NCBI RefSeq assembly: GCF_018977255.1 | Contig: NW_024704742.1 | Span: 31,250,001 to 31,314,000 of the forward strand | Source: Callorhinchus milii | Lineage: Eukaryota | DNA: 64,000 bases | Reading direction: 5' to 3' | Shown: piece after piece, positions 6,801 through 63,380 of the stretch | Position numbering within the stretch: the stretch's first letter is position 1 | How the letters are laid out: the number at the start of each line of letters is the position of its first letter | Notes under the pieces: model-generated | What the model was told of the DNA's origin: nothing | What the model saw: only the letters and a program-made list of their open reading frames with translations | Databases searched by the model: none | Position numbers and translations under genes: made by a program

Positions 6801-7147
6801 TAACAAGTACTCTGGGATCATAATGTGATAATGCCTGTAAGCAATACTTATACCAGGAGATTATTTCAAAATAATATATTTTTCTAGATGGTGCTGAAAA
6901 GCATGAGGTGCTACAAAAATTAAAAAATTAAAATTAAAAAATTACATAATTGTCTTTTTCATTAACCATAGTAGTTTGGGAAAAGTTTGGCTCAAATCAG
7001 AACCCAATTGAAAGCTTTGCTTGACCATTGCTTAAAAGGAAAGCCATTTCCTGAAATGCCATGTGCTTCCATTCATTCTTGAAATGGATCCCATTGAATT
7101 TGAGTACCATTTCCCTTATTCCAGATCTAAAGATCTTCAGCAATAGT

Positions 7148-28312: not shown

Positions 28313-29600
28313 AACAACAACAACAACAACAACAAAATTACATTTGTATAGCGCCTTTCACATCAGGAAGATGTCACAAGGCGCTGGACAGACAGAGTTA
28401 TGGACTTGAGCTGGGGGTTGGGGTCAGGGAGGGTGGAGGGCAGGGAGGAAGCTGGGAGATCAAAAGCACGGTCGAAGAGGAGGGTCTTGAGGTGGGTCTT
28501 GAAGGTGGCAAGGGAGGGGGCGCGGTGGAGGGATTGTGCGATGGAGTTACAGAGGGTGGGGGCAGAGTGGCAGATGGCCAAGAGTGGGGCAAGCAAGGCT
28601 GGGGATGTGAAACAGGCTGGAGCCCGCTGAGCAGAGAAAGTGACTAGGATGGTAGGGGATTAGGAGGTTGCAGAGGTAGCGGGGAGCAAGACAATGGAGG
28701 GCTTTGAAGGTGAGAACCAGGATCTTGAACTGTATCTTCTGTGTGATGGGAAGCCAGTGGAGTTGGGCAAGGATGGAGGTGATAGGGTCGCGGAGCCTAG
28801 TGCGGGAGAGGACACGGGCTGCAGAGTTCTGGATGATCTGCAGCCTGTGGAGGGAAGAGTTGTGGAGGCCAACAAGCATGGAGTTTGCATATGATGTAAT
28901 GAAAACATACATGAGGATTTTGGCGGTCTGCGTTGTGAGACAGTAGCGGAGCCGGGCGATGTTGCAGAGGTGGGGGAAGGCAGAGCAGATCATGGCGCAG
29001 ATGTGGGATAGAAAGGATAGTTGAAGGTCAAACAAGATCCCAAGGTTCCAGACTGGCTTAGAAAATTGGAGTGTGCAACCATAGATGGTGTTGCTTTCAG
29101 CGCTTGAGGTGAGGAGTCGCTGACGGGAGCCAATCAGGAAAACCTCGGTCTTGTTGACGTTCAACTAAAGAAAGTTAGCTCTCATCCAGGACTTGATATC
29201 TGACAGACATTCTGTCAGGACAGCAGTGGTCCTGAAGTCAAGGGTGGAGGCAGAGAGGTAGAGTTGGGTGTCATCCGCATACATGTGCAAGTTGACCCCA
29301 TGTATGCGGATGATGTCACCAAGAGGGAGCATATAGATATTGAAGAGGAGGGAACCAAGGACACAGCCCTGAGGAACACCACACGAGACGGGTCAGGGGA
29401 GAAGCCATTTGTGAAGATGAAGTGGAGGCGGTGTGAGCGGTATGATCTGAGCCACTCAAGGACAGAGCTGTGAAGGTTGAGGTGAGAGGAGAGGCAGTGG
29501 ATAAGGATAGAGTGGTCGACGTTGTCGAAAGCAGCAGGGAGGTCAAGGAGGATGAGGAGGCAGAGGGAGCCCTGGTCGCAAATGGACAGAATGTCATTCA
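28313..29600 (-). mobile_element. L2 LINE fragment including part of the RT domain
   Basis: Minus frames give [31 protein letters not shown] (catalytic YADD), NVNKTE and LHWLPITQKIQFKIL; (caa)n tail near 28313; frameshifted. Confidence 0.96.
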
Positions 29601-30284
29601 GGTTACTCGGCCCAACTAGCCTGTGCTGGTGTTTATAGTTCATCTATGATGCAAATTTCCTCTTAAATACATTGATGCTTCTCGTTTCAAGCTCAGTTTA
29701 TGTCAGTGAGTTTCACATTCTTGATGAGCCGGGCGGAGGATGCCGGGGCTGGAGCAGAGGGAGGCTGTGAAAGGTCCCTTAACCTATTAAACTTCCTATT
29801 AGATCTATTACTCACTATTGTATATTTATGTATGGTATTAGGGTGTGTTTTAAGCATTATAAAACATAAGATTGTTCCTGAAAATAACTTCCATGTAGAT
29901 TGTCTTTCTGCATCTTTTTCACAGCGCAGTTTGAGGGCACGTGAAGCACTTCCGTGAAAGCACTTGTTGATCAAACTCAGTCGGATGAATCTTTGCTGTG
30001 TGTTTCCTGTGAATTTCTGATACGTACATTTGTTAATCACAGCAACCAATAAATAATATCATCCTTGCCTTATCAAGTCATTGAGAATGCCTCAAAGCGA
30101 TTCACAGGATATACTGTAAAGTGGATTGAATGTATTTTGTCGACGAAACAGTAGTGTCCCACAAACAGCCATGGAGTGAATGATCAATTAAATACTAACC
30201 CTGGGAGACTTAAAAGCTGAATAACAGGTTACCTACACTTGGGTCCTGATAGCAAACACTTTCTTTGTGGATAAATATTAACCG

Positions 30285-30625: not shown

Positions 30626-30787
30626 TGTCATAATGCGGACCAGAAGCAGTTCTATTCAGACTTTACATGGATTTAGTTTGAAACAAGGGCAAGTTCATGC
30701 TGAGTCTTGTGCAGTTGTATTTCTTGCACAATGCCCTCTGTTTGGTGCACGCGTGACTTAAATCATTTTGGACACCAACGCAGAACT

Positions 30788-31114
30788 GGAGTTCTGTAGC
30801 TCAGTGGTTAGAGCACTCGCTTTGCAAGTGAGAGACCTGAGTTCAATTCCAGGCAGAGGGCGAAACCTTGGGCAAGTTTCCTTACTCCCCACAGAGCCTA
30901 ATAATAATCCCTCCAAAAAACCCAAAACAATAATTAAATTGGTCATTTTCAATCTACGACTGTTTGTGGGACATTGCTGTGCGCAATTGGCTGCCGCGTT
31001 CGCCCACAAATATACAGTCAATTCACTTTACAGTGTGTTCTGTGAAGCGCTTTGGGACGTCCTCCTGACGTGAAAAGCGCTATATCAAATGCAAGGATTA
31101 TTATTATTATTATT
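30788..31114 (+). mobile_element. tRNA-Ala SINE, short form, young full-length copy
   Basis: ggagttctgtagctcagtggttagagcactcgctttgcaag...gttcaattcc head; highly similar to 43467-43783; (att)n tail. Confidence 0.96.
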
Positions 31115-31279
31115 AACTAGAAAGGTTGATTTTTGTGAATGCAGCAGAATAGCAAGTGCAACAATTTGAATTTTCTGAATGTGATGAAGTCTCCTAGGTA
31201 GTGGGGCAGCTGTGTGCGTTCAACATGACTCCAAGACGTTCAAAGGCAGCTCCGTAAATACTCAATGTGAACGCTGCCG

Positions 31280-33269: not shown

Positions 33270-33780
33270 CAATAATAATAACAATAATAAACAAAACAAT
33301 AATAAATTGGTCATTTTCAATCTACGACTGTTTGTGGGACATTGCTGTGCACAATTGGCTGCCGCGTTCGCCCACAAAATATACAGTCAATTCACTTCAC
33401 AGTATATTCTGTGAAGCGCTTTGAGACGTCTAGAAGACGTGAAAGCGCTATATCAAATGCAAGGATTATTATTATTAATAATAAAAAATAATAATCCTTG
33501 CATTTGATATAGCGCATTATCACGTCATGGAGACATCTCAAAGCGCTTCACAAAATATACTGTAAAGTGAATTGCCTGTATACTTTCTGGGCGAAACGCG
33601 GCAGCCAATTACGCTCAGGAGTTTGATTTTTTTAAGGGATTATTATCCACAGAAAATGATCCACCAATCGACTAACAAACAGGTTCCGACTTACTGCTAG
33701 GTAAAATGAGGCATGTGGAGTAAGGAACCTGGCCTAAAGTTTCATCCCCACCCCCCCCAGACATCAAACCTAGGCCCTCA
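33270..33780. mobile_element. Tail-to-tail inverted pair of tRNA-Ala SINEs
   Basis: Plus copy 33270-33475 ends caaggattattatt; minus copy begins aataatccttgcatttgatatagcg near 33490 and runs to about 33780. Confidence 0.92.
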
Positions 33781-33884: not shown

Positions 33885-35716
33885 ACCACATCAAAACATA
33901 TCACAACCCTCGCCTCCGCTAAATCGTCCTTCTACTCCAAAATAATCTTGGAGGTGAAGGACAACCCCAAACTCCTATTCTCCATCACAAACGGGCTCCT
34001 CCGTCCACCCTCTTACACCGCATCCGTTCACTCTTCAAACTCTGACTGAGGAGATACTGGATTTCCTCCAGTCCAAAATCGAGGGGATTCATTCAGCTGC
34101 CTCCGCCTTCCCAGCCGCCACTCTCTCCCCATCTCCTCCCCAGACTGCGACCCCTACCCATCCCTCCCTCCACATCTTCGTACCTATCCCTCCCTCCTCT
34201 CTCATCACCATCATATCCAGCATGAAACACATCACCTGCTCCCTTGATCCCTCTCCTTACCTCTCAGCTCCACCTTCTCGCCATTCTACTCTCTGACACC
34301 ATTAATCTCTCCTTATCATCTGGTACAATTCCCATCTCTCTAAAAAGAGCTATGATCACCTCCATCCTGAAAAAACTTCCTTGGAACCATCCCTGCTTTC
34401 TAACTACCAGCCCATTTCCAACCTCCCTTTCTTTCCAAGGTCCTTAAAAGAGTTGTTGCTTCCCAGCTCCTTCCTCTCCTACCATTCCTTTCACGAACTG
34501 CTCTGGTCAACGTCACAAACGACATCATATCCATCTGTGACCAGGGCTCCCTCTGCTTCCTTGTCCTTCTTGACCTCTCCGCTGCCTTCGATACCATGGA
34601 CCACTCCATCCTCCTCCACCGCCTCTCCTCTCACCTCAATCTTCAAGATTCTGTCCTTGAATGGTTCAGGTCCTATCTCTCACACCATCTCTAATTTGTC
34701 TCCACCAACGGTTTCTCTTCCAGCCCCCGCACAGTCTCGTGCAGTGTTCCTCAGGGCTCTATCCTCCGTCCTTTCCTCTTCACCCTCTATACGCTCCCCT
34801 TTGGTGACATCATCCGCAGACATGGGGTCAACTTCCACATGTACACGGATGACACCCAACTCTATCTCTGCCTCCACTCTCGATTCTAGGAGAACTGATG
34901 TCCTAACAGACTGTCTGTCAGACCTCAACTACTGGATGAGAGCTAACTTTCTTCAGTTGGACGTCAACAAGACTGAAGCCCTCCTGATTGGCTCGCACAA
35001 ACGCCTCCGCACCTGAGGCACTGGCAGCATCAGCATCCATGGATTCGCACTCCACCTCACCAAGCCAGTCAGGAACCTGGGTGCTTGTTCAACCCTCAAC
35101 TGTCCTTTCTCCCCCATATCTGTGCCGCAACCCGCTGTGCCTTTGTCTCACCCCTCAGACCACCAAACCCCTCATACACGCATACGTCGCCTCAAGGTTT
35201 GACTACAGAAACTCCCTCTGCAGCTTATGTCCTCTCCCGCACCAGGCTCCGTGAGTCCATCACCCCCACCCTCGCTCGGCTCCACTGGCTCCCCATCCCT
35301 CAGATGACAGAATTCAAAATCCTCATCCTCACTTTCAAAGCCCTCTACGGCCTTGCCCCCTCCTACCTCTCTGACCTGCTAACCCCCTATCAACCCGTCT
35401 GCTCCCTCTGTTCAGCAGGCTCCGGCCTGCTCCATGTCCCCCACCCGACTCGCCCTACCATTCGGCAGCCGGGCTTTCAACCTCTCTGCCCACACCCTTT
35501 GGAACTCCATCCCACAATCCCTTTGCCTTGCTCCTTCCCTTGCCTTCTTCAAGGCACGACTCAAGACCCTCCTTTTCGACTGTGCCTTCATCTGTCCTCC
35601 TACCTCTCTGCCCTCCCTCATCCCAAGCCTGTCCCCCCACCCCACGCTCGGGTCCTGATCCCCGACGTCCTCCTGATGTGAAAGGCGCTTTCCAAATGTC
35701 ATTTTGTTGTTGTTGT
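33885..35716 (+). mobile_element. L2 LINE, longest fragment (about 1.8 kb decayed ORF2 with RT)
   Basis: [64 protein letters not shown] and LHWLPIPQ motifs; (ttg)n tail; several stops and frameshifts. Confidence 0.97.
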
Positions 35717-40136: not shown

Positions 40137-41384
40137 ACAATATATCCTGTGCAGTATATCCTGTGAAGCACTTTGAGACATTTGCCCGACCCAGTAAAGC
40201 GCTGTATGCCTCTGCTAGAGGCTTACACCAGTGTAATGTTAATGCCTACTGAAATTGGAATTGTATTATATCTATAAAAATAATAATAATATGGTCACTC
40301 AATCGACGACTGTTTGTGAGGCATGGCTGTGCACAATTGGCTGCTGCGTTTCGCCCACAAAATATACAGTCAATTCACTTTACAGTAGATTCTGTGAAGT
40401 GCTTTGAGACATCTTGAAGACGTGATAAGGGGCTATATCAAATGCAAAGGTTATTATTATTATATAAGTGTGGCATTCAGCGATATAATAACTCCAGCAG
40501 AGCTAAAAGACCAGTTCCCTTTTTGCTCAGTGTTTATTATAATAATCCTTGCATTTGATAAAGTGCCTTATCGTCTCATTGAGATGTCTCAAAGCGCTTC
40601 ACAGGATATACTGTAAAGTGTTCTTTTTACTGTGTGTATTGTTGGTGAAGCTGGACAGGATTGTTGATTGGGGATATGATACAAAAAAGGAAACCCTTGA
40701 AACAGCTTTTTATCAACTCTTCATAACATAAGTCCACAATTACTAGGGCCAAAGGGTGAAGGGCAAGGCAGTGGGTATACAAATACATAAGCATCTTACT
40801 GAGACAATAATCTTTTAAAACAAACCCTTGATCTGGCTGCTGCCTTGGGTTTAATTTTTTCATTCCGTTCATTTTCCTTTCAGACATTATTCAGATTTAT
40901 GCTGTCCCAGTAATCTGTTTACTGAGGAGCCCATTACTAAGCTCCGAGATAATTGGTTGCTTTCGAATGAATGAAATTGGACTTAAACTGACAAGGAGAT
41001 TATCGGCACAGGACCGATACAGTTTTAATTGTAAAAATGGTTGGTTTAACATTTTACAGCATAAAATTCCATTACTCCAGTATAATAAGATTGTGTTTTG
41101 ACAAGCTCAGTGATGTACAGTGAAAGCATCAGCAAACACAGGTTGCACAGATCATAAACTATATTAAGCTGTATTACTGGACCACTTGCTTGGGACAGTT
41201 GACTCCAGATAAATGAGCAGATGATCCAAGCATAGCATCTCAATGTATTAAATTGCTTCCTCTTCATTGCAACTGTACAGAAGTCATGATGAATATTTGT
41301 TTGAAGATTGTGTACAACATTTTAATTCATGCATAAAACATTGCCTGATGCATAATTTGTGTTTAACTCTTAGCTTCCTAAGCT

Positions 41385-43392: not shown

Positions 43393-43466
43393 CTAAAAAT
43401 TAGGACCACATACAACCTTGAAACATTTTTACGTTAAGAATTTATCATGAGAACTAGTACCCCTGT

Positions 43467-43783
43467 GGAGTCCTGTAGCTCAGTGGTTAGAGCACTCGCT
43501 TTGCAAGCGAGAGACCTGAGTTCAATTCCAGTCAGGGCGAAACCTTGGGCAAGTTTCCTTACTCCACACACCTAATAATAATCCCTCCAAAACCAAAAAC
43601 AATAATAAATTGGTCATTTTCAATCTACGACTGCTTGTGGGACATTGCTGTGCGCAATTGGCTGCCGCGTTCGTCCACAAATATACAGTCAATTCACTTT
43701 ACAGTGTGTTCTGTGAAGCGCTTTGGGATGTCCTCCTGACATGAAAAACGCTATATCAAATGCAAGGATTATTATTATATTAT
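43467..43783 (+). mobile_element. tRNA-Ala SINE, short form, young full-length copy
   Basis: ggagtcctgtagctcagtggttagagcactcgctttgcaagcgagagacctgagttcaattcc head with intact A and B boxes; L2-like tail and (att)n. Confidence 0.96.
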
Positions 43784-44420
43784 TTGAGCTGAGCTGGTGA
43801 TACGGCAAATATTGCAGAACTGTAGATGTGAGTAGGAAGTGCCACGCATTTCCTTCTCACTCTTGCTCGTCAGGAGACCGTTGGGGTTATTTGAAAGTGG
43901 ATCACTTTGTGGTTGGTATTTCAGCTCAATGTTCATCCTGAACACCAGGTGGCATCATTACTGTATAGCTCTGGGCAGTGAACTTGGGTTGTCGAATGTG
44001 AAACGCAAAGTCAATGTGCAGTGAGCAAATACAAAACAATTTGCATAGCATCTTTCACGTCGGGAGGACGTCTCAAAGCACTTGACACTGCTGGCACAAA
44101 TGCATTAAAAAAATGCACCTTTTGGAAAATACAATGCAGTAGATTAAAAACAGCCTTCCAGATCGGATAAAGATCCGTTTTATTTAATATTGTTTTCTTT
44201 CCCCCATGTGGGGGAACTTCAAACTCATTCTGAATTAATCCAAATTAATTGGATAAATACTTTAAATGTACAGTATGGTATCTCAACAGTCAGGTTGTGT
44301 CAAGAGCCCTGACATTACGATACTCCAGCTCCTCAAATCATTGGTCCAAACAAGAACAACGATGCAATCATCTCAATACAATCTCTTGTGCAAGATTGTC
44401 TTCCGTAATGAATAAATAAA

Positions 44421-60552: not shown

Positions 60553-62254
60553 GCATCTTATAAAGGTATATACAATGTTAAATGAGACTGAGAGAGTAAA
60601 TCTGAAAAATAATTTCAGATACACCAAGGCAGCTTGAAAAGAGGGCACAATTTCAGAATTATGAAGGTCAACTTTAGAATAGTCGCCAGGACTCATTTCT
60701 TTACACAGAGTATAATCAGCAGCTGGAACTGGAAGCTTGGTGGAGGCTAAGACACTAAACTCATTAAAAAACAACTTCAATAGGAAGAAATTTGGGTGTC
60801 CACCTACAGGTAGTTACCAAATACCAATAAGACCCTAAATTCTACCTATCAGTCTCTTCACATGAGGAGTATTATACCCACTATCACTGGTGTAAAGTCA
60901 GCCACCTGAAAGTAAAGGAGCTTCCTCCAAGCAACTACCTCGTACGAAACTAAACTATACGAACTTGGATATCTCAAGTTTGGCTTGTGTGTTGTATACA
61001 TACTATATATGTTTATTGCTTGTGTGTGTATATAATTATATAACTGTGTTGTGTAAGTATTGTATATGTTTATTGCATGTCAGTGTTTGTACTGTGTGTG
61101 TGTATGTATATTACTGTTTGACAATGTACCTACATTTGTGTGACATTCTCACACAAGAAGAGACACATGCAGATTCCCTCCAATGTCTATTGTTCCCCAT
61201 TGAACCCCCTAACAAAATGAATGAAAATGAGCTGTTCTCATTTTATTGTTTCACACTTTAGTAAAATGCCCGTTTCCTTTTGCGCTGATGTGCGTGTGTT
61301 CCCTTGTACTGGGAGAGGACAAGATAAGGCTCTGTTGCATCACTCCAATGGAAATGCCTCACGACACTTACTGACTGGTAACACGTAAAGAATAACCACT
61401 TGAGCAAGGTCCTGGAAAAGAGAAGGAAACCCACCCAAAGCATGCTCGAGCAATGGGAAGCTTGGCGAGGAAAGGGTTAAGCGGATGTTCTGGTAGTCAC
61501 CAGGCACCTACTTCAAAACATGACTGTGTTTTCATTCATGGTTCCCACATGTCTTTTCACTGGAGTCAAAACGCTCAAAATTGCACATCAAAGTTGTTGA
61601 AATAATATGAGTAATACTTTGGTTATGTTCATTATGTGAAGAACACCCATGTATATGAAAAGAAAACAGCATGTTTAAATATCTCACAGTTTCCCCTCTC
61701 AAAGATTTCACGCAGAGGCCTTTATTTTCTCTCCCCCTGTTGATACTGGACGCTTTTCTCCTCGCTACCATGAGCCGGGGCATGGTGACGCTAACACAGT
61801 GATGGTTCTAGCAGCTCATCTGCGCTGTATTTATTTGTACACAGCATGCACTGGTCTTGCAAGATTCCAGTTCCATCTCTGCCTCTGAGCTCATCCACAT
61901 CCCGATCTATTTTGCTTTGTTTTTCAACCCTAGTGGAACAGTGTTAGCCCTGCTTTTTAACCAGGCACGATCTGCTGTCTATAGACCTGTCATGTTGAAT
62001 TGGTTTGGAACAACCGGGAAAAAGGATAGAAACTGAATGGAGAGTGAAAGAGTGGAAAATGCAGGAAAGTGAAAAGAGGTGGTGAGTTGGTGAAATGGAT
62101 TTGTGTGACAGGGGTGCCTAAATATGACTAGGGATACTCACATCTGAAAGTTTTAGGAGAAATAGCAATACAACAATTCCACCTCGGCTCAGTGCCACAG
62201 GTCTAGATGCATTTGAATAATATATTAATATGATGTATTCTGACCAATGTTTTA

Positions 62255-62690
62255 TGAGTTTCTCCCGGTGTCCTAGCCAACAATCCCCAAAGTATAATGG
62301 TCATCCATTTTTTTCACTGGGACGTGGCTGTGTATAAATTAGTTGCAAACAAAAACAGAAGTTGCTGGGAACATTCAATAAGTCAGGCAGCATCTATGGA
62401 GAAAGAAAAGTGAGTCAACATTTCGGGTCCACGACCCTTCATCAGAATGTGGACCCAAAGCGTTGACTCACTTTCCTTTCTCCATAGATGCTGCCAGACC
62501 TGCTGAGTGTTCCGAGCGACTTCTGTTTTTGTTTTCAGATTTCCAGCCTCTGCAGTATTTAGTATTTGTTTTATAAATTAGTTGCGTTCGCCTACAAACT
62601 GCACAGTCACTACATATTACAGTAAATCTTGTGAAACGCTTTGAGACATCCTTCCAACATGAAAGACGCTGTATTGATTGCAAGGATTAT
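62255..62690 (+). mobile_element. Deu-SINE 3' half interrupted by a Penelope-type insertion
   Basis: gagtttctcccggtgtcctagccaa...gggacgtggctgtg before the insertion; gttcgcctacaaa...gcaaggattat after it. Confidence 0.82.
62347..62571. mobile_element. Palindromic Penelope-like terminal-repeat element with hammerhead-like core
   Basis: About 85-bp inverted arms (62347-62430 and 62449-62534); 14-bp TSD tataaattagttgc; minus strand reads ctgatgaagggtcgtggacccgaaa. Confidence 0.8.
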
Positions 62691-63074
62691 CTTTTTTTTC
62701 TCATTAAAATCCACTTGCCCTTCCTTGGCCCAACCACATCATTTGTGCAGATATTTTCAGTGTTAATAGTGTCTCTATACAGTAGTTACCTGGGTACATA
62801 GCTTGTTCAGCCCTAATGATATCTACTAAATGTATCCTCCATATATTGTAGTAACATAACAGCAAGACCATTCATTCTTCTGCTGGTAGCACTCTCACTC
62901 TGAGTCAGAAGGTGGAAGGTTCAAGCTCCAAATTTACAAATCAGACTCTTTAAAGCCTTCGCAATACTGGAAGTTTAATTCCACTTAAAGTGCTTTTACG
63001 TGGTCACAAAGAAATATGGAACACCTCAAAACTGTATTCTTGGCCTTAAGACAATTGTCTTAACCTCTCCAATC

Positions 63075-63380
63075 AGCGGGCTCCGGCCTGCTCCATGTTT
63101 CCCGTCCGGCTCACCCACTATCGGCAGTCAGACCTTTAGCCTATCTGCCCCTACTCTATCCCACAGTCCCTTCGCCTCGCTCCCTCCCTTGCCTCCCTCA
63201 AGGCCTGTGTCAAGACCTTCCTCTTTGACCACGCCTTCAGTCACCTTCCTACCCATACTCTCCCTGCCCTTCACACCTACTGATCCCAACTCCCTGCTCA
63301 GGTCCAAATCCCTGACTGCCCAGTGCCTTGGGACATCCTTCTGAGGTGAAAGGCGCCATACAAATTAATTTATTGTTGTT
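63075..63380 (+). mobile_element. L2 3' end
   Basis: cccactatcggcagtcagacctttagcc...tcaagaccttcctctttgacc...gtgaaaggcgccatacaaat...ttgttgtt. Confidence 0.9.

What the first reader, a model, noticed from the sequence alone, without database searches (positions are those of the whole stretch)
62333..62585. Self-contained 225-bp palindromic Penelope-derived element with a 14-bp TSD and a hammerhead ribozyme-like core
Seen: a 225-bp unit (62347-62571) flanked by an exact 14-bp direct repeat, tataaattagttgc (62333-62346 and 62572-62585), that splits a Deu-SINE, so the unit moved as a whole. It is a long hairpin whose centre on the minus strand reads CUGAUGA-A-GGGUC-GUG-GACCC-GAAA-UGUUG (about 62415-62445). 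Established: Penelope-like elements carry minimal hammerhead motifs in their terminal repeats and often form inverted termini. Inference: this is a non-autonomous, ribozyme-bearing mini-retroelement mobilised in trans. This copy has GAAAUGUUG where GAAAC-GUH is canonical and an extra A after CUGAUGA, so it may be inactive.
Basis: partly seen in the sequence, partly recalled or inferred. Interest (0 to 1): 0.72.

Follow-up and report, generated by a model that had tools for sequence, protein, structure and literature searches.

The report
Fold-back stub of Penelope-like retroelement
The 225-base hairpin is real, but it is most likely an old, dead, stump-sized insertion of a very abundant Penelope-like jumping gene, made of two head-to-head pieces of that element's ribozyme-bearing end, which is an insertion pattern already described for this class.

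Summary
Observation confirmed: a 225-bp insert between exact 14-bp repeats, with 86-bp inverted arms, splits a SINE. It consists of a 5'-truncated direct piece of a repeat end (62449-62534) with a one-sided 37-bp tail (62535-62571) and an inverted, tail-less piece that alone holds a minimal hammerhead (62347-62448). This is the published 'inverted pLTR + tail + TSD' pattern of Penelope-like elements. The 'extra A' is part of the published minimal-hammerhead consensus, not a defect; the majority letter of related contigs gives canonical GAAAC-GUU. The family is extremely abundant in three organisms, but the centre is not shared: 19 listed contigs across it fall into 10 length classes, and hundreds leave the copy at 62447. 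A self-contained mini-element moving as a unit is therefore not supported, though not excluded. The ribozyme is buried (25 kcal/mol) and lies on the strand opposite the tail. No link to an RT-endonuclease gene could be tested. The scan reached this reading before on other DNA. Ordinary.

The parts
62254..62332 (+). Left part of the host SINE copy (itself 5'-truncated at about 62256)
   Evidence: Alignments to other window copies begin at 62254-62256; 85-229 contigs per run (3 of 4 runs list 135-229) continue with other letters before 62256
62333..62346 (+). Left target-site duplication, 14 bp, 79% A+T, part of the SINE
62347..62448 (-). Inverted, tail-less piece of the repeat end (pLTR-like), 102 nt; reaches 16 nt further 5' than the direct piece
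62413..62447 (-). Minimal type I hammerhead: C3-A9 62445-62439, extra A 62438, helix II (5 bp, 3-nt loop) 62437-62425, G12-A14 62424-62422, A15.1-U15.2-G16.2-U16.1 62421-62418, H17 = U 62417; helix I only 2 bp in this copy
   Evidence: numbering; published consensus; only full match in the window
62433..62448 (.). Unpaired centre; head-to-head junction at 62448/62449 with an inferred 1-nt microhomology (C, later CpG-decayed to T)
   Evidence: loose ends of related contigs continue with C at 62448; microhomology is inference
62449..62534 (+). Direct, 5'-truncated piece of the repeat end; begins in hammerhead loop II, so it lacks CUGAUGA
62535..62571 (+). One-sided 37-bp 'tail' with a short stem-loop at its start
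   Evidence: 30-40 bp one-sided tail described
62572..62585 (+). Right target-site duplication, identical to the left
62586..62700 (+). Right (3') part of the host SINE copy

Best explanation
A one-off, severely 5'-truncated insertion of an endonuclease-bearing Penelope-like retroelement. Shown: anatomy, TSD, split SINE, abundance of the family, varied centres. Inferred from PLE biology: the GIY-YIG endonuclease made a 14-nt staggered cut in A+T-rich DNA inside an already decayed SINE; both 3' ends primed reverse transcription on PLE RNA, the bottom strand at the tail end (123 nt, stopping in hammerhead loop II) and the top strand at the pLTR end 37 nt upstream (about 102 nt, stopping just past CUGAUGA); the two short cDNAs were joined head to head and filled in. 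Each arm then drifted by about 6%. The hammerhead is a passenger from the parent's terminal repeat; this copy is not expected to cleave or to move again.
For: Same layout as Pen2a_Av: inverted pLTR 37 bp shorter than the full one, 31-bp tail on one side, 9-bp TSD (PMC3846280); 'inverted 5'-truncated copy' plus 30-40 bp tail at one end as general PLE traits (PMC8557442). The anole PLE protein cleaves and extends both strands, prefers A+T-rich DNA and starts at two RNA sites whose interval is the tail (PMC11167929). The motif fits the PLE minimal-hammerhead consensus position by position. Summed depth over the insert 17,000-528,000 against 6-9.5 on unique flanks in run X1, and up to 4.3 and 3.7 million in X5 and X10 (not a copy number). 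Majority letters give GAAAC in both arms: 62420 A>G in 52-69% of depth, 62457 A>G 66-88%, 62460 G>A 97-99%. 173, 407, 553 and 67 contigs leave the copy at 62447 with mixed letters (agreement 0.37-0.39); 19 of the 32 listed pieces bridge the centre, in 10 net-length classes from -10 to +11, 1 of 19 without a gap, all near single-copy depth; 15 listed joints are all different and low-depth.
Against: No copy of this repeat end was seen joined to an RT/GIY-YIG reading frame: no genome is held and 5 collection scans found nothing, so PLE membership rests on RNA motif and layout. One search shows only 32 of about 58,900 pieces and 15 of 294 joints, does not give the position of gaps, and contigs break in repeats. 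Five of the 19 bridging pieces share -8 and four share -4, which could be fixed-centre subfamilies, favoured junctions or orthologous loci. Helix II (5 bp) is shorter than the 7-8 bp given for S. mansoni motifs, though several listed PLE motifs have 5 bp. No Rfam hammerhead model matches.
Confidence: 0.8

Rival explanations
1. One reading: the 225-bp fold-back is a non-autonomous family, transcribed and retrotransposed as a unit by PLE protein in trans.
For: PLE proteins can mobilise pLTR-flanked DNA in trans; non-autonomous PLE derivatives exist. One RNA-guess contig (X15, piece 20) crosses the centre without a gap, and classes -8 (5 of 19) and -4 (4 of 19) recur. The plus strand keeps the tail needed for priming.
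Against: 10 length classes among 19 bridging pieces, none at high depth; hundreds of contigs diverge at 62447. No second copy in the window. The tail-bearing strand has no complete hammerhead, so the ribozyme could not serve the mobile RNA. Arm differences are private changes against the majority letters, split between both arms.
Confidence: 0.1
2. Same parent, other route: the inverted arm arose by fold-back self-priming on a longer (antisense) template at the palindromic hammerhead region, and the tail was trimmed from one arm during integration, as proposed by Arkhipova and colleagues.
For: Proposed for head-to-head PLE junctions; both arms carry the same loop-II letters and the junction lies at helix II.
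Against: Each arm has letters the other lacks (CUGAUGA block; tail), so neither finished arm is a plain copy of the other; self-priming here would rest on one base pair closing a 15-nt loop. In vitro both target strands are extended from two start sites.
Confidence: 0.2
3. A MITE or fold-back DNA transposon whose centre resembles a hammerhead by chance.
For: Short, palindromic, high copy, TSD-flanked; the two ends share 9 of their first 11 inward-facing letters.
Against: 37-bp tail on one side only; variable centres and many unpaired arms; 14-bp TSD is longer than those I recall for DNA transposons; full minimal-hammerhead match, against 0.12 looser matches per shuffled window.
Confidence: 0.03
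4. A co-opted structured RNA (microRNA precursor, working ribozyme or editing substrate).
For: Very stable hairpin; PLE repeats are heavily A-to-I edited in lizard (PMC5625713).
Against: Rfam matches are plant microRNA models far below their cut-offs (37 vs 73 bits); changes fall on both arms without compensation; helix II pairing probability about 1e-12 in the full RNA and at most 2e-5 in nascent prefixes.
Confidence: 0.03

Closest known systems
Insertions of endonuclease-positive Penelope-like elements with inverted pLTR and tail (Pen2a_Av, Arkhipova et al. 2013, PMC3846280; Craig et al. 2021, PMC8557442; passages read)
   Same: Head-to-head inverted 5'-truncated piece, tail of 30-40 bp at one end only (37 here), inverted piece shorter by the tail, TSD around the whole unit.
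   Different: No ORF left at all; TSD 14 bp against 8-10 bp in the rotifer cases; link to an RT gene not shown here.
Minimal hammerheads (min-HHR) of metazoan PLEs (Cervera and de la Pena 2014, PMC4209133; parts 1-2 of 4 and part 2 of 3 of supplement file 2 read)
   Same: CUGANGAH, G10.1-C11.1 closing pair, GAAA, two-base palindromic helix III, short helix I; mostly single motifs from truncated PLEs; opposite-strand pairs at ends of truncated copies already reported.
   Different: No cartilaginous-fish motif among the searched supplement text; this copy has U15.2 and helix I cut to 2 bp.
Anolis Poseidon element PAc (Frangieh et al. 2024, PMC11167929; parts 1-2 of 4 read)
   Same: Two RT start sites separated by the tail; both strands extended; A+T-rich target; hammerhead about 90-130 nt upstream of the start sites (111-118 nt from stem II in PAc; 91 and 128 nt here).
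   Different: PAc start region is called AC-rich, the tail here is U-rich; clade of the present family unknown.
Non-LTR retrozymes (Cervera and de la Pena 2020, PMC7229834, passages; Li et al. 2026 bioRxiv 10.64898/2026.07.22.740005, parts 1-3 of 5)
   Same: Small, non-coding, type I hammerhead, related to PLE terminal repeats.
   Different: Retrozymes are head-to-tail tandem repeats with at least two same-strand ribozymes that release circles; this unit is head-to-head with one ribozyme.

Membership tests
Penelope-like element (EN+) | Telomerase-like RT plus GIY-YIG endonuclease ORF in the full-length parent | not testable with these tools
   No genome held; 0 hits in 5 collection scans; the insert is too short for an ORF
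Penelope-like element (EN+) | Inverted 5'-truncated copy adjoining the 5' end (head to head) | tested here: met
   definition
Penelope-like element (EN+) | 30-40 bp tail at one end only | tested here: met
   37 bp, 62535-62571
Penelope-like element (EN+) | TSD in A+T-rich target | tested here: met
   14 bp, 79% A+T; empty-site alignment in 24 of 42 hits
Penelope-like element (EN+) | Dispersed, mostly 5'-truncated, variable copies | tested here: met
   depth profile, loose ends and varied joints in 4 of 4 runs
PLE minimal hammerhead | Core CUGANGA + extra base, G10.1-C11.1, GAAA, U16.1, H17 | tested here: met
PLE minimal hammerhead | Palindromic 15.2-16.2 | tested here: inconclusive
   U.G in this copy; C-G by majority letter, 52-69% of depth
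PLE minimal hammerhead | Helix I of 3-5 bp | tested here: not met
   2 bp in this copy; 4 bp would form with the first letters of the loose ends at 62447
PLE minimal hammerhead | Self-cleavage (as dimer or protein-assisted) | not testable with these tools
   Needs an assay; folding argues against it in this copy
Rfam hammerhead families | Match to a curated covariance model | tested here: not met
   No hammerhead model among 11 and 2 matches at E <= 10
Non-LTR retrozyme | Head-to-tail tandem units with two or more same-strand hammerheads | tested here: not met
   One motif, inverted layout; definition
Non-autonomous fixed-structure family | Many loci with the same centre and ends, each with its own TSD | tested here: inconclusive
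   Leans against: 10 length classes in 19 bridging pieces, none at high depth; table is a small selection and shows no flanks
MITE / fold-back DNA transposon | Terminal inverted repeats reaching both ends | tested here: not met
   37-bp unpaired tail
Deu-domain SINE (host element) | Similarity to the Deu domain consensus | not tested
   No consensus available; label recalled; PMC5499810 passages confirm such SINEs in cartilaginous fishes

The most novel reading that the evidence does not exclude
Among the many fold-back stubs of this family, some with a fixed centre (for example the recurrent class 8 nt shorter than this copy) are themselves re-mobilised as whole palindromes, forming a MITE-like non-autonomous class of retroelement whose hammerhead is locked inside its own hairpin; this copy would be a member or near relative of such a class.
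Probability: 0.1. Interest if true: 0.5.

Novelty: new member of a known kind. Interest (0 to 1): 0.17.

Why it matters
As a single locus it matters little. As a class, such stubs are a natural record of how Penelope-like elements integrate, which is still open: each TSD-bounded fold-back fixes both priming sites and both stopping points. Here the two arms start one tail-length apart and stop at the hammerhead, which fits the two start sites and two-strand extension seen in vitro for the anole element. A family this abundant would allow a genome-wide test of two-strand priming against self-priming. The stubs are also ready-made 86-bp hairpins, possible editing substrates if transcribed.

Tried and rejected
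No whole genome is held, so the genome-wide search could not be run. No second copy in the window by blastn, nhmmer or pattern. Exact-pattern scans of viral, metagenome and prokaryote genome contigs: 0 hits each, as expected for an animal repeat. Rfam: only weak plant microRNA and snoRNA models. No RNA holder listed; the one RNA-guess run laid has no cover on the unique flanks: no evidence either way on expression. Presence of the insert in organisms B and C: they hold flank-like contigs (X10 piece 62085-62253, 27 differences) and a joint 62285>62590, but any SINE copy could give that joint, so inconclusive. Loose ends before 62347 in X10 were first read as 'left end not shared' (note); I dropped this, because tail-bearing arms can simply be laid on the left arm. 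A second looser hammerhead hit at 7140 lacks U16.1. Pfam scan of 30 of 91 long open frames: two weak RVT_1 hits below cut-off, no GIY-YIG. The look-up of earlier findings by sequence gave one unrelated note. Paper searches for a description of this family in cartilaginous fishes found none; Repbase and Dfam cannot be searched here and may well hold it, and unread supplements (file 1; bioRxiv tables) may too.

Full report
OBSERVATION. An exact 14-bp direct repeat lies at 62333-62346 and 62572-62585; the chance is about 6e-9 per placement and 2.5e-6 if each end may move by 10 bases. Between the repeats lie 225 bp. The arms 62347-62432 and 62449-62534 differ at 11 of 86 positions, without gaps (the twelfth mismatch printed there is in the TSD). 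Both strands fold into one long hairpin, z about -17, with 0 of 200 shuffles as stable. The last 37 bp have no partner. With the insert and one repeat removed, 24 of 42 nhmmer hits elsewhere in the window run across the junction with 20 or more bases on each side, and 0 of 37 hits to the filled site fall within the insert (alignments). So one insertion event split a SINE. Both repeats carry the same departures from the other SINE copies, so the SINE had decayed before the insertion. The name Deu-SINE and a cartilaginous-fish host are recalled or taken from earlier notes, not tested; PMC5499810 (passages) describes such SINEs but its supplements could not be read.

ANATOMY. The plus strand carries, from 62449, a piece that begins in loop II of a hammerhead, runs through its 3' half and 70 further bases, and ends in the 37-bp tail. 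The minus strand carries, from 62448 leftwards, a second piece of the same sequence that starts 16 nt earlier, so that it includes CUGAUGA, and ends where the tail would begin. The two pieces meet head to head. Each has letters that the other lacks. Only the inverted piece holds a whole hammerhead, and it is on the strand opposite to the tail.

THE HAMMERHEAD. Numbered: C3-A9 at 62445-62439, one extra A, a 5-bp helix II closed by G10.1-C11.1 with a 3-nt loop, G12-A13-A14, A15.1-U15.2-G16.2-U16.1, and U17. Cervera and de la Pena 2014 (PMC4209133; abstract, parts 1-2 of 4, and part 2 of 3 of supplement file 2 read) give the consensus CUGANGAH - helix II - GAAAN palindrome NUH and name the base between 9 and 10.1 as conserved. 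The 'extra A' is therefore typical, and several listed motifs have a 5-bp helix II. A looser scan finds 2 sites in the window against 0.12 per shuffle (60 approximate dinucleotide shuffles); the second, at 7140, lacks U16.1. No Rfam hammerhead model matches (11 and 2 matches at E <= 10, none a hammerhead). This copy is unlikely to cleave: single minimal motifs showed no cleavage in that paper; helix I has 2 bp here; forcing helix II with an open core costs 25 kcal/mol, and helix II pairing probability is about 1e-12 in the full RNA and at most 2e-5 in nascent prefixes, because the antisense arm is made first.

OTHER COPIES. No genome is held, the window has no second copy and five collection scans were empty. 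I laid contigs of 4 of the 24 listed runs on 62050-62850 at 80% likeness: X1 (organism A), X5 (B), X10 (C), X15 (A, RNA by guess). Summed depth is 6-9.5 on unique flanks in X1 and 17,000-528,000 over the insert; peaks reach 4.3 million in X5 and 3.7 million in X10 (flank about 45). The tool warns that this is no copy number, but the family is clearly very abundant in three organisms. Majority letters give GAAAC in both arms (62420 A>G in 57, 54, 52, 69% of depth; 62457 A>G 74, 66, 69, 88%; 62460 G>A 97-99%) and N7 = C in 60-76%. The arm differences are private changes on both arms, about 6% each, several at CpG; an unchanged TSD pair is then not unusual (p about 0.16). On the key question, 173, 407, 553 and 67 contigs stop matching at 62447 and go on with mixed letters (agreement 0.37-0.39). 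Of the 32 pieces listed (of about 58,900), 19 bridge the centre with 31 or more bases on each side; their net length against this copy is -10 (1), -8 (5), -6 (1), -4 (4), -2 (1), 0 (2), +2 (1), +7 (2), +9 (1), +11 (1); one has no gap; all lie near single-copy depth. The 15 listed joints (279 more not shown) are all different, including inverted arms joined straight to the tail and, in table 5c, one fold-back with a 40-nt centre. Limits: the lists are selections, gap positions are not shown, flanks are not shown, and the recurring -8 and -4 classes could be fixed-centre subfamilies or the same locus in related species.

MECHANISM. Arkhipova et al. 2013 (PMC3846280, passages) describe a Penelope insert with an inverted pLTR 37 bp shorter than the full one, a 31-bp tail on one side and a 9-bp TSD, and note that head-to-head junctions are the commonest. 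Craig et al. 2021 (PMC8557442, passages) and a curation guide (PMC8969392, passages) list these as general PLE traits. Frangieh et al. 2024 (PMC11167929, parts 1-2 of 4) show that an anole PLE protein cuts A+T-rich DNA, extends both strands, starts at two RNA sites whose interval is the tail, and does not need hammerhead cleavage for insertion in vitro. My inference: a 14-nt staggered cut, one cDNA primed at the tail end and one at the pLTR end, both stopping at the structured hammerhead and joined through about one base of microhomology. Self-priming on a longer template with later loss of one tail remains possible. Steps shown: layout, TSD, split SINE, abundance, varied centres. Steps inferred: PLE enzyme, order of events, junction chemistry.

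COMPARISON AND MEMBERSHIP. It works like a truncated inverted PLE insertion and meets every layout test; the defining RT-endonuclease link could not be tested. It is not a non-LTR retrozyme, which needs head-to-tail units with two same-strand ribozymes (PMC7229834 passages; bioRxiv 10.64898/2026.07.22.740005 parts 1-3 of 5). It is not a MITE by its ends. Opposite-strand min-HHR pairs at truncated PLEs were already noted in 2014. Four paper searches found no description of this family in cartilaginous fishes; a whale shark genome paper lists Penelope among its repeats (PMC8455134, one passage). Repbase and Dfam could not be checked. PMC6155905 (passages) and PMC5625713 (passages) served as background.

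EARLIER NOTES. My reading was entered before any relevant note was seen (70% for an ordinary truncated and inverted PLE insertion). Later look-ups returned unchecked notes with the same conclusion for this and other genomes, including copies with other arm lengths and 14-15 bp TSDs. They are not counted as evidence.

VERDICT. Real feature, correct class guess, but an ordinary dead stub. Interest 0.17; new member of a known kind.

Noticed in passing
window 33345-33618: A 274-bp palindrome made of two 3' halves of the abundant SINE joined tail to tail at their (TTA)n ends, about 87% complementary; a weaker one lies at 40350-40649.
   Followed up: partly
window 62497-62538 (+): The direct arm ends in a branch-point-like stretch, a pyrimidine run and CAG, like a 3' splice site; the inverted arm stops just before the CAG. 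PLE terminal repeats can overlap introns; not tested.
   Followed up: no
window 62536-62552 (+): The tail starts with a short stem-loop; the majority letter at 62548 (C>A, 95-98% of depth) would add a base pair, so the stem may be a conserved recognition element.
   Followed up: partly
window 62347-62357 and 62561-62571: Both outer ends of the insert read nearly alike inward (9 of 11), so both inferred priming sites on the RNA end in the same U-rich letters.
   Followed up: no
window 29218-29643 (-) and 34404-34691 (+): Decayed reverse-transcriptase fragments (weak RVT_1 hits below cut-off), by recall of L2/CR1 type; 3' fragments of the same LINE recur across the window, including 63067-63380.
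   Followed up: partly
window 30787-31115 and 43464-43784: Two full-length SINE copies 94% identical over 328 bp, the youngest pair seen in the window.
   Followed up: no
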